The notes below the pieces were generated by a model, which saw only the letters and a program-made list of their open reading frames with translations, was not told the DNA's origin and ran no database searches. Made by a program: the position numbers and the translations under genes. DNA of 64,000 nucleotides from assembly GCF_055900595.2 (NCBI RefSeq), contig NZ_CM148325.1; one strand, 5' to 3'. Below, in pieces: positions 43,321 to 46,855 of this stretch (position 1 is the first letter of the stretch; every line of letters starts with the position of its first letter).

Positions 43321-44979
<1,659 letters not shown>

Positions 44980-44994
44980 TGATGTGCCACATCC

Positions 44995-45460
44995 GGCATG
45001 GTATGCCGGATGTGGCGTATGCTGATAAGACGCGCCAGCGTCGCATCAGTCAACCGGCTCGGGCGTTAGATCGGATGCGGCGTAACCGCCTTATCCGACC
45101 TACGGGGTGGAGCACTTCACAGCGGTGTAGGCCTGATAAGACGCGCCAGCGTCGCATCAGGCTACCGGCTTGGGCGTTAGATGTCGGATGCGGCGTGACC
45201 GCCTTATCCGACCTACGGGGTGGAGCACTTCACAGCGGTGTAGGCCTGATAAGACGCGCCAGCGTCGCATCAGGCAACCGGCTCGGGCGTTAGATGTCGG
45301 ATGCGGCGTGACCGCCTTATCCGACCTACGGGGTGGAGCACTTCACAGCGGTGTAGGCCTGATAAGATGCGTCAGCGTCGCATCAGTCAACCGGCTTGGG
45401 CGTTAGATGTCGGATGCGGCGTGACCGCCTTATCCGACCTACGGGGTGCCACACTTCACG
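44995..45460. repeat. Tandem BIME/REP array (about four copies of an approximately 110-bp unit)
   Basis: gcgccagcgtcgcatcag recurs at about 45040, 45150, 45260 and 45370, each paired with gatgcggcgt(a/g)accgccttatccgacctacggggtggagcacttcacagcggtgtaggcctgataagacgcgcc; these generate the overlapping Arg-rich artefact ORFs at 44979-45774. Confidence 0.7.
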
Positions 45461-45465
45461 GCAGT

Positions 45466-45954
45466 TTAGCGGACTACCGCGTTGTCAATTTTCTCTTCCG
45501 CCTTCCAGATGCGGTATTTCACATCTACATTGTCTGGCGTATACACCACGATCGGCAGCTTGCTGTTGTAACGCAGCATTCCAGCATCGCCCAGATACGC
45601 GGTGACAAATTTCTTCTCTTTCTTGCCATCCGGGCAGGCCATCATCGTGGAAACCGGCGAGCTAACTTTATCAAAGACGTAATAATCATAGCCCCAGCCT
45701 TCCAGCGTTTTGCTTTCCAGCTTCCCGCCGAGACGATGCAAATTGCAATCGACTTCCAGCGTCTGACCGATTAACAGTTCTACTTTCAGGGTAGATTCAT
45801 CTTCTTGCGGGGTTAACTGAATCACCTGACGCTTCATGCCTTTTTCAGCTTGCGGATAAGGCGCGATTTTTTCCAGTGGCTGGACGCTCTCTGCCGCCCA
45901 GGCGGAAGTGGTAGCGAAAGCGGCAAACAATACTGCAGGTAGAATGGTCTTCAT
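45466..45954 (-). CDS. eco: Ecotin, periplasmic serine-protease inhibitor
   Basis: 162-aa ORF with signal peptide [20 protein letters not shown]; recognised ecotin. Confidence 0.93.
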
Positions 45955-46231
45955 TGTTGTATTCCCTTCGTCATTTATAGGTTTTCACCGATGATGTCGC
46001 TGAAGGTTAACATATTCATCAGATTTATTAATTTGCTTTATGAATAACTAAAAGAACATTCAGACAATTTTACCTTCTCTTTTAGTGTTAAATTCTGAGG
46101 AGTGGTAAAGCCTTGAGAAATATCTCTGGCGAATTAATCGCTATATAAATATGTTTATAACCATTTGAAATGTGAGCAAAAGCCCGTTTTTGCCACTCTT
46201 CCCACCACTCTTTTGATCCTGCTACAGGTTT

Positions 46232-46247
46232 TACCCCGATCGGGGTA
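46232..46247. promoter_or_regulatory. NarP/NarL 7-2-7 binding site in the napF promoter
   Basis: TACCCCGATCGGGGTA, a perfect inverted repeat of the NarL/NarP heptamer (TACYYMT-like) about 115 nt upstream of napF; a weak FNR-like half-site (ttgat) lies just upstream at about 46213. Confidence 0.55.
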
Positions 46248-46360
46248 TGCATCTTTGACACAACCTTTAATATCTTAGCGGCTATAAAAATAGCTTATTA
46301 GTTGTGTGGTTTATTTGGTCGCTCTCAATTTTCAGAGCGCGTTAATGATGGAAGGTCAAT

Positions 46361-46855
46361 GTGAAGATTGATGCATCCCGTCGGGGCATACTCACTGGTC
46401 GCTGGCGCAAAGCCAGTAACGGTATCCGTCCGCCCTGGTCCGGTGATGAATCTCATTTTCTGACCCATTGCACCCGCTGTGACGCCTGTATTAATGCTTG
46501 TGAAAACAACATTCTGCAACGCGGCGCGGGGGGCTATCCGAGCGTTAATTTCAAAAATAACGAGTGCAGCTTCTGTTATGCCTGCGCGCAAGCTTGCCCC
46601 GAATCGCTATTTTCTCCGCGCCACACCAGGGCCTGGGATTTGCAGTTCACCATTGGGGACGCGTGCCTGGCGTATCAGTCAGTTGAATGCCGCCGCTGTC
46701 AGGATAGCTGTGAGCCAATGGCAATTATCTTTCGCCCGACGCTCTCCGGGATCTACCAGCCGCAACTTAATAGCCAACTTTGCAACGGATGTGGAGCATG
46801 TGCAGCCAGCTGTCCGGTATCAGCCATAACTGCGGAGTATCTCCATGCACACTAA
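46361..46855 (+). CDS. napF: NapF, ferredoxin-type iron-sulfur protein of periplasmic nitrate reductase
   Basis: 164-aa ORF (GTG start) with multiple CxxCxxCxxxCP 4Fe-4S motifs. Confidence 0.93.
   Translation: MKIDASRRGILTGRWRKASNGIRPPWSGDESHFLTHCTRCDACINACENNILQRGAGGYPSVNFKNNECSFCYACAQACPESLFSPRHTRAWDLQFTIGDACLAYQSVECRRCQDSCEPMAIIFRPTLSGIYQPQLNSQLCNGCGACAASCPVSAITAEYLHAH

What the first reader, a model, noticed from the sequence alone, without database searches (positions are those of the whole stretch)
46200..46260. Perfect 7-2-7 NarP/NarL palindrome in the napF control region
TACCCCGATCGGGGTA (46232-46247) is an exact inverted repeat of NarL/NarP heptamers positioned upstream of napF, with narP encoded about 12 kb downstream on the opposite strand. 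The adjacent FNR-like site is only a partial match (ttgat-N4-ctaca), so anaerobic activation may rely on a weak FNR box; I could not confidently place it.
Basis: partly seen in the sequence, partly recalled or inferred. Interest (0 to 1): 0.25.

Follow-up and report, generated by a model that had tools for sequence, protein, structure and literature searches.

The report
Known NarP/NarL site of napF promoter
The 16-base palindrome is the already well-studied docking site where the nitrate-sensing regulators NarP and NarL control the E. coli periplasmic nitrate reductase operon, so it is real, correctly interpreted and ordinary.

Summary
Confirmed and already known. TACCCCGATCGGGGTA sits exactly at 46232-46247, 114 bp upstream of napF, and occurs once in the window. 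The block from the FNR-like box through the -10 region (46205-46262) is identical to E. coli K-12 and to 4,961 of 5,421 complete E. coli genomes that match. Published work names napF as one of the original NarL/NarP '7-2-7' sites, with heptamers at -49 and -40. That puts the site centre at -44.5 and +1 at window 46284. A ModE-like repeat is centred at -133.5. An alignment of nine sequences from Escherichia, Citrobacter and Leclercia shows the 7-2-7, the TTGAT half-site and the -10 region as conserved islands. The overlapping yojO reading frame is broken in seven of the nine, so coding constraint does not explain this. narP lies at 58713-59360 on the minus strand, as claimed. Nuances: each heptamer departs from TACYYMT at position 7, perfect symmetry is not universal (O157:H7 has TACCTCG), and the FNR box cannot be placed by score alone (7/10). 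Interest is low.

The parts
46232..46247 (.). NarL/NarP 7-2-7 site TACCCCG-AT-CGGGGTA. Heptamer centres are 46235 (-49) and 46244 (-40); the site centre is 46239.5 (-44.5).
   Evidence: sequence, uniqueness, chance. (identical to K-12). (13 of 16 columns invariant across 3 genera). PMC4549865 and PMC2718512.
46213..46226 (.). FNR site TTGAT-cctg-CTACA, centre 46219.5 (-64.5). The left half is consensus; the right half matches 2 of 5.
   Evidence: 7/10; centre 20 bp from the NarP site centre. (TTGAT 5/5 invariant; right half conserved as C[A/T]AC[A/T]). FNR ChIP-seq peak assigned to napF in K-12 (PMC3688515). The -64.5 label comes from my own knowledge of Stewart et al. 2003 (PMID 13129959), which I could not read here.
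46139..46162 (.). ModE-like inverted repeat CGCTATATA-aatatg-TTTATAACC, centre 46150.5 (-133.5).
   Evidence: 14 of 16 to an approximate ModE operator consensus that I wrote from memory. Conserved in Escherichia and Citrobacter but not Leclercia. ModE activation of napF is stated in PMC8139620. The -133.5 position is from my own knowledge of McNicholas & Gunsalus 2002.
46171..46186 (.). CRP-like half-match TGTGA-gcaaaa-GCCCG, centre -105.5. A candidate only.
   Evidence: 7/10. The block AAATGTGAGCAAAAGC is conserved in 8 of 9 sequences (mean column identity 0.87). A Crp site upstream of the Fnr/NarP sites was reported by Stewart et al. 2009 (own knowledge; paper not readable; position not recalled).
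46268..46277 (+). -10 region with two overlapping hexamers, TAATAT (46268-46273) and TATCTT (46271-46276), offset by 3 nt.
   Evidence: Sequence. 9 of 10 columns invariant across three genera. The 3-nt offset fits the published dual promoters P2/P1 (own knowledge of Stewart et al. 2003). TATCTT is a proven functional -10 at the ogt promoter (PMC7419079).
46284..46284 (+). Inferred transcription start of the main promoter P1.
   Evidence: Derived from heptamer positions -49/-40 (PMC4549865) applied to 46235/46244. Not measured here.
46361..46855 (+). napF, first gene of napFDAGHBC; GTG start preceded by GGAAGG.
   Evidence: TIGR00402, 248 bits. Annotation of homologous E. coli loci.
58713..59360 (-). 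narP, the response regulator that binds the site.
   Evidence: NF007708 equivalog, 457 bits; profile 1-215 aligns to residues 10-224 of the ORF.
46088..46252 (-). yojO, an annotated 54-codon ORF. Its first 14 codons are the reverse complement of the NarP and FNR sites. It overlaps them but is probably not part of the mechanism.
   Evidence: annotated in K-12 as b4604. (frame broken by stops at codons 16-21 in 7 of 9 sequences). (no NCBIfam family).

Best explanation
The palindrome is the shared NarP/NarL operator of the napF (periplasmic nitrate reductase) operon promoter. A phosphorylated NarP dimer binds the two inverted heptamers centred at -44.5. Together with FNR, bound to a weak site two helical turns upstream at -64.5, it activates the main promoter P1 under anaerobiosis with nitrite or low nitrate. 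Phospho-NarL, which predominates at high nitrate, binds the same 16 bp. It activates poorly and so displaces NarP, lowering expression. Upstream ModE (-133.5) and probably CRP sites add molybdate and carbon-source inputs. Shown here: sequence, position, identity to K-12, conservation, and presence of narP. Taken from the literature: binding, competition and synergy. Inferred: +1 at 46284, and the same behaviour in this strain.
For: Sequence and uniqueness. The 58-bp core 46205-46262 is identical to K-12 and to 4,961 of 5,421 E. coli genomes, while the whole intergenic region is only about 94.5% identical to most E. coli. Cross-genus footprint: 7-2-7 mean column identity 0.94, TTGAT 1.00, -10 region 0.96, against 0.74 overall, with no indels between the FNR site, the NarP site and the -10 region in any of nine sequences. 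The substitutions seen in the heptamers are those the consensus tolerates: position 5 C/T, position 7 free. Frame consistency: one +1 (46284) puts the three sites at -44.5, -64.5 and -133.5. Literature: napF heptamers at -40/-49 (PMC4549865); napF among the original 7-2-7 sites and NarP binding only 7-2-7 (PMC2718512); induction by FNR and NarP-P, with NarL-P blocking NarP-P binding (PMC9262595); an FNR ChIP-seq peak at napF and the need for NarP co-activation (PMC3688515). narP is present in the window.
Against: Nothing contradicts it. Caveats: no binding or transcription data exist for this particular strain. The primary footprinting papers could not be opened, so the -64.5, -133.5 and P1/P2 details rest partly on my memory of them. 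The sigma-70 scan found no promoter, as expected for an activator-dependent promoter with no -35 match, but this means +1 is not independently supported by a consensus promoter. The window differs from nearly all E. coli at -21 (A for T) and at four 5'-UTR positions, with unknown effect.
Confidence: 0.95

Rival explanations
1. The block is conserved because it encodes the N-terminus of the small protein YojO on the opposite strand, not because proteins bind the DNA.
For: yojO is annotated in K-12 and in many E. coli genomes across this exact stretch. Its codons 2-7 are the palindrome.
Against: The reading frame is interrupted by stop codons at codons 16-21 in E. albertii, a divergent 'E. coli', four Citrobacter genomes and Leclercia. 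C. werkmanii also lacks a start codon (GAG). The DNA block stays conserved in all of them. Conservation continues downstream of the yojO start into the -10 region, outside the ORF. No protein family matches.
Confidence: 0.02
2. The palindrome acts as an RNA or DNA hairpin (terminator or attenuator), or is a chance G+C-rich inverted repeat with no regulatory role.
For: It can fold into a 6-bp stem with a GATC loop: -10.7 kcal/mol on the + strand and -13.3 on the - strand for the 44-nt context. A perfect 8+8 palindrome is expected about once per 64 kb by chance (my arithmetic: 64000 x 4^-8).
Against: No terminator-like site is found in 45955-46400. The fold z-scores are modest: -1.6 and -2.25. 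The site lies upstream of the inferred start, so it is not in the napF transcript. eco is transcribed away from it. In Citrobacter and Leclercia the central bases change, while the arms that match the NarL heptamer are kept.
Confidence: 0.01
3. The functional motif is the central CGATCG/GATC (a Dam methylation or restriction target) rather than the heptamers.
For: GATC lies exactly at the dyad centre (46238-46241). A second GATC lies inside the FNR half-site (46215-46218).
Against: The central GATC is replaced by AATT, GATT or CATT in 4 of 9 sequences, while the outer TACC[C/T]C...GGGGTA arms are kept. Two GATC in 406 bp is the chance expectation of 1.99.
Confidence: 0.02

Closest known systems
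E. coli K-12 napF (aeg-46.5) operon control region: NarL/NarP 7-2-7 site at -44.5 and Fnr site at -64.5 (Darwin & Stewart 1995; Darwin et al. 1998; Stewart et al. 2003)
   Same: Base-for-base identical from 46205 to 46262, covering the FNR box, the 7-2-7 and the start of the core promoter. Same flanking genes: eco, yojO, napFDA. Same spacing to the napF start codon.
   Different: The window has A instead of T at -21 (46263) and four changes at +8 to +23. There is also a variable patch upstream at 46097-46115. None of these touches a mapped site.
Engineered narG -89/-89 high-affinity 7-2-7 site TACCCCTAAAGGGGTA, co-crystallised with the NarL C-terminal domain (PMC4549865)
   Same: Identical six-base arms TACCCC...GGGGTA in a perfect palindrome with the same 16-bp geometry.
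   Different: The four central bases are TAAA rather than GATC, so position 7 of each heptamer follows the consensus there and does not here. That site is synthetic, not natural.
Other natural 7-2-7 sites: fdnG, nirB, nrfA (PMC2718512), yeaR at -38/-47 (PMC4549865), ogt at -44.5 and -77.5 (PMC7419079)
   Same: Inverted TACYYMT heptamers with a 2-bp spacer, bound by NarL dimers and, at least at some of them, by NarP. yeaR and ogt NarL II share the near -44.5 position abutting the -35 region.
   Different: At napF the response regulator sits between FNR and RNA polymerase. FNR is at -64.5 rather than at what I recall as its more usual class II position near -41.5. NarL acts mainly as an antagonist of NarP rather than as the activator.

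Membership tests
NarL/NarP 7-2-7 operator | Two heptamers in inverted orientation separated by exactly 2 bp | tested here: met
   TACCCCG-AT-CGGGGTA, a perfect dyad.
NarL/NarP 7-2-7 operator | Each heptamer matches TACYYMT | tested here: met
   6 of 7 in each half. Positions 1-6 (TACCCC) fit and position 7 is G instead of T. Natural variants change only position 5 (C/T, allowed) and position 7.
NarL/NarP 7-2-7 operator | Lies in the control region of a nitrate/nitrite-regulated operon at a position from which activation is possible | tested here: met
   114 bp upstream of napF. Centre at -44.5 using the published heptamer positions -40/-49 (PMC4549865).
NarL/NarP 7-2-7 operator | Same sequence as the experimentally mapped K-12 site | tested here: met
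   Identical to K-12 C600 over 46205-46262 and to 4,961 E. coli genomes.
NarL/NarP 7-2-7 operator | Protected by phospho-NarP and phospho-NarL in vitro; mutations abolish nitrate/nitrite control | not testable with these tools
   Published for the identical K-12 sequence (Darwin & Stewart 1995; Darwin et al. 1998). These are cited in PMC9262595, but the papers themselves could not be opened.
NarL/NarP 7-2-7 operator | Cognate regulator encoded in the genome | tested here: met
   narP at 58713-59360 (-), NF007708, 457 bits. narL is not in this window (not examined).
FNR (CRP/FNR-family) binding site | Match to TTGAT-N4-ATCAA | tested here: inconclusive
   7 of 10: left half 5/5, right half 2/5. 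333 positions in the window score at least 7, and a non-conserved 8/10 match lies at +37.5.
FNR (CRP/FNR-family) binding site | Fixed, helically phased position relative to promoter and co-activator, conserved across species | tested here: met
   Centre 20 bp upstream of the NarP site centre with no indels in nine sequences. TTGAT is invariant.
FNR (CRP/FNR-family) binding site | Occupied by FNR in vivo or in vitro | not testable with these tools
   A ChIP-seq peak is assigned to napF in K-12 (peak centre 2301675 in the older genome version; PMC3688515). With napF starting at 2303497 in NC_000913.3 and a version offset of about 1,977 bp (my knowledge), the peak is about 13 bp from the predicted site centre.
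ModE operator | A+T-rich inverted repeat of the CGnTATATA...TATATAnCG type upstream of a molybdoenzyme operon | tested here: met
   CGCTATATAaatatgTTTATAACC matches 14 of 16 of an approximate consensus written from memory. It is conserved in Escherichia and Citrobacter. Binding is not testable here.

The most novel reading that the evidence does not exclude
In Escherichia, both activator sites carry a Dam target: TTGATC in the FNR half-site (46215-46218, kept in all nine sequences) and GATC at the exact dyad centre of the NarP/NarL site (46238-46241, kept in Escherichia and one Citrobacter). Methylation state, for example hemimethylation after replication, could then modulate FNR or NarP/NarL occupancy and add an epigenetic input to napF control. 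In Haemophilus influenzae, GATC motifs overlapping the predicted FNR site upstream of nap are methylated (PMC12345214). I found no paper addressing this for E. coli napF.
Probability: 0.06. Interest if true: 0.3.

Novelty: already known. Interest (0 to 1): 0.06.

Why it matters
It matters little as a discovery, because this is a textbook operator that was mapped in the 1990s. It is useful in two ways. It shows that the scan can recover a real regulatory site from raw sequence. The cross-genus footprint also gives a clean picture of what is constrained: heptamer positions 1-6, the 2-bp spacer length, the 20-bp FNR-NarP spacing and a deliberately poor FNR right half-site. Perfect symmetry, heptamer position 7 and the central GATC are not constrained.

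Tried and rejected
1. I tried to open the primary papers by PubMed or PMC id: Stewart 2003, Darwin 1998, McNicholas 2002, Stewart & Bledsoe 2005, Stewart 2009. None is held. A search for '44.5/64.5' found nothing relevant.

2. I looked for primer sequences for the -85..+19 napF fusion of Brosse et al. to anchor +1 independently. No supplements are held.

3. The sigma-70 consensus scan found no promoter in 45955-46400. This is uninformative for an activator-dependent promoter.

4. The best FNR consensus match in the region is TTGGTcgctCTCAA at 46315-46328 (8/10, centre +37.5). I rejected it because neither half is kept in Citrobacter or Leclercia.

5. I first concluded that the A at 46263 was private to the window, since the exact 39-mer is absent from 5,426 genomes and the control with T is present in 5,414. 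I had to correct this. The divergent strain MFDS1006657 has the same A, plus a neighbouring change that blocked the seed.

6. I searched E. coli genomes with the CAACA variant of the FNR right half, taken from locus L003. No complete genome carries that 58-mer exactly, so this did not explain the 459 variant genomes. Sampling them directly did.

7. The terminator/hairpin reading was rejected.

8. Literature on YojO: nothing relevant found.

Full report
**What is in the sequence**

The window reads ...ctcTTTTGATCCTGCTACAGGTTTTACCCCGATCGGGGTATGCATC....
- TACCCCGATCGGGGTA occupies 46232-46247 exactly as reported. It is a perfect 16-nt palindrome with its dyad centre between 46239 and 46240.
- It is the only match in the 64-kb window even with three mismatches allowed.
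- The partial FNR match TTGAT-cctg-CTACA is at 46213-46226.

The flanking genes are as follows.

| Gene | Coordinates | Strand | Evidence |
|---|---|---|---|
| mqo | 43333-44979 | + | named by comparison with E. coli annotation |
| eco (ecotin) | 45466-45954 | - | NF002987, 261 bits |
| napF | 46361-46855, GTG start | + | TIGR00402, 248 bits against a cut-off of 102 |
| napD and napA | following napF | + | |
| narP | 58713-59360 | - | NF007708, 457 bits against a cut-off of 343; profile begins at residue 10 of the ORF |

**Is it more than chance?**

By score alone, only moderately.
- Against the full consensus TACYYMT-NN-AKRRGTA the site has two mismatches, a G for T at position 7 of each half. 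At that stringency the window gives 2 matches against 2.56 expected.
- The six-base arms TACYYM...KRRGTA give 1 match against 0.10 expected. That scales to about 6e-4 for the 406-bp napF upstream region (my arithmetic).
- The FNR box scores 7/10, as do 333 other positions in the window. A better 8/10 match lies at +37.5.

Consensus scoring therefore cannot place the FNR site. Position and conservation have to do that.

**Identity with the mapped K-12 site**

- The intergenic region matches 5,421 of 5,426 complete E. coli genomes, always once per genome apart from a single extra match, and always on the chromosome. Gene order is eco-yojO-napF.
- Across the whole intergenic region the window is only about 94.5% identical to K-12 and most E. 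coli. The best is 98.3%.
- The stretch 46205-46262 is base-for-base identical to K-12 and to 4,961 genomes.
- Open papers state that the napF 7-2-7 site lies at '-40 to -49', that is, heptamer centres (PMC4549865).
- They also state that napF is one of the four genes for which the 7-2-7 arrangement was first reported, and that NarP binds only that arrangement (PMC2718512).

Applying -49/-40 to heptamer centres 46235/46244 gives +1 = 46284. On that frame:

| Element | Position relative to +1 |
|---|---|
| 7-2-7 site | centre -44.5 |
| FNR box | centre -64.5 |
| A+T-rich ModE-like inverted repeat CGCTATATAaatatgTTTATAACC (46139-46162) | centre -133.5 |

These are the positions I recall from Stewart et al. 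2003 and McNicholas & Gunsalus 2002. I could not open those papers.

Two overlapping -10-like hexamers, TAATAT (46268-46273) and TATCTT (46271-46276), are offset by 3 nt. That fits the published 'dual overlapping promoters' (own knowledge).

An FNR ChIP-seq peak is assigned to napF in K-12 (PMC3688515). After coordinate conversion it falls about 13 bp from the predicted site. The conversion uses plus a version offset that I supplied from memory.

**Phylogenetic footprint**

A scan of species-representative genomes with NapF returned usable loci from a divergent 'E. coli', E. albertii, four Citrobacter genomes and Leclercia. I aligned their upstream regions with the window and K-12.

| Block | Mean column identity |
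|---|---|
| 7-2-7 site | 0.94 (13 of 16 columns invariant) |
| TTGAT half-site | 1.00 |
| -16..-7 region | 0.96 |
| Ribosome-binding region | 0.91 |
| Whole alignment | 0.74 |
| Poorly conserved stretches | 0.50-0.63 |

- No sequence has an indel between the FNR box, the 7-2-7 and the -10 region.
- Changes inside the heptamers are exactly those the consensus allows: position 5 C to T (E. albertii, Leclercia), with position 7 free.
- Two Citrobacter genomes have TACCCCAATTGGGGTA. This is a symmetric double change that keeps a perfect palindrome.
- The FNR right half is conserved but never consensus (CTACA, CAACA or CTACT). This suggests a site kept weak rather than one decaying. That reading is an inference.
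- A TGTGA block at -105.5 is kept in eight of nine sequences and is a candidate for the Crp site reported by Stewart et al. 2009. The position was not verified.

**Rival: the overlapping yojO ORF**

yojO (46088-46252, minus strand) starts two bases from the palindrome, and its codons 2-7 are the palindrome. If YojO were a real conserved protein, it could explain the conservation.
- The frame is intact only in the window and K-12.
- It is cut by stop codons at codons 16-21 in the other seven sequences.
- In C. werkmanii the start codon is also missing.
- The protein has no NCBIfam family.

The apparent conservation of its N-terminus is most simply a by-product of the binding sites.

**Other rivals**

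- No terminator-like feature is present, and the hairpin is unremarkable (z = -1.6 and -2.25).
- The central GATC is lost in four of nine sequences.

**Variation within E. coli**

- 459 genomes differ from the 58-bp core. The five listed in a spread sample each differ by one base.
- The three I fetched, including O157:H7 strain 86-24, all carry TACCTCGATCGGGGTA. This is within consensus but no longer a perfect palindrome.
- One genome (ST361) has an extra C in the first heptamer, inside a C-run. yojO is flagged as frameshifted there. A sequencing error is as likely as a real 7-3-7 variant.

**Mechanism, with status of each step**

| Step | Status |
|---|---|
| The site, its geometry, its identity to K-12, its conservation, and the presence of narP | Shown here |
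| Phospho-NarP dimer binding at -44.5 and synergy with FNR at -64.5 to activate P1 | From the literature |
| Phospho-NarL competing for the same site and antagonising NarP, so that nap is expressed at low but not high nitrate | From the literature |
| ModE and IscR inputs | From the literature (PMC8139620) |
| +1 at 46284, and the window's strain behaving like K-12 despite its variants at -21 and +8..+23 | Inferred |

**Verdict**

The feature is already known, so interest is low.

Noticed in passing
window 46088-46252 (-): yojO (b4604 in K-12) is annotated across the napF control region, and its first 14 codons are the reverse complement of the NarP and FNR sites. The frame is intact only in the window and K-12 and is broken by early stops in 7 of 9 related sequences. 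It has no family match, and no relevant literature was found. It is probably a spurious or very young ORF whose N-terminal 'conservation' reflects the binding sites.
   Followed up: yes
window 46263-46307: The eco-napF intergenic region looks mosaic. Up to 46262 the window matches E. coli Z0117EC0005 at every variable position. At 46263 (A, -21), 46292, 46301, 46304 and 46307 it carries the alleles of the divergent strain MFDS1006657 instead. The exact 39-mer around 46263 is absent from all 5,426 complete E. coli genomes, while the T version is in 5,414. The T at -21 is otherwise invariant across Escherichia, Citrobacter and Leclercia.
   Followed up: partly
window 46215-46218 and 46238-46241: There are two Dam (GATC) sites: one inside the FNR half-site (TTGATC, kept in all nine aligned sequences) and one at the exact centre of the 7-2-7 (kept only in Escherichia and C. 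werkmanii). The count is at chance level for the region. A possible methylation input is untested.
   Followed up: partly
L027-L029 (O157:H7 86-24, F9792, 6EVA), position equivalent to window 46236: About 8% of complete E. coli genomes (459) differ from the 58-bp core, and the five listed in a spread sample each differ by one base. The three I fetched, including O157:H7 strain 86-24, all carry TACCTCGATCGGGGTA, an asymmetric but consensus-compatible variant of the NarP/NarL site. The same C-to-T change is seen in E. albertii and Leclercia.
   Followed up: yes
L026 (E. coli ST361), equivalent to window 46234-46237: One extra C in the C-run of the first heptamer (TACCCCCGATCGGGGTA) would change the 7-2-7 geometry. 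yojO is flagged as frameshifted there. It could be a homopolymer sequencing error.
   Followed up: no
window 46315-46328: TTGGTcgctCTCAA matches the FNR consensus 8/10, better than the real site, and is centred at +37.5 in the napF 5' UTR. It is not conserved outside Escherichia. The neighbouring +21..+40 block is fairly conserved (0.84-0.90) for unknown reasons. An ArcZ-napF mRNA interaction has been reported by RIL-seq (PMC8139620).
   Followed up: partly
window 44979-45460: The region between mqo and eco contains several near-identical tandem ORF-like translations (repeats of '...[24 protein letters not shown]...'). These are typical of clustered REP/BIME-type repeats. Not examined further.
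   Followed up: no
window 37035-37050: TACTTAAGAATAAGTT is the only other match in the window to the 7-2-7 consensus at 2 mismatches or fewer. That is within chance expectation (2.56 per window), and it was not examined.
   Followed up: no
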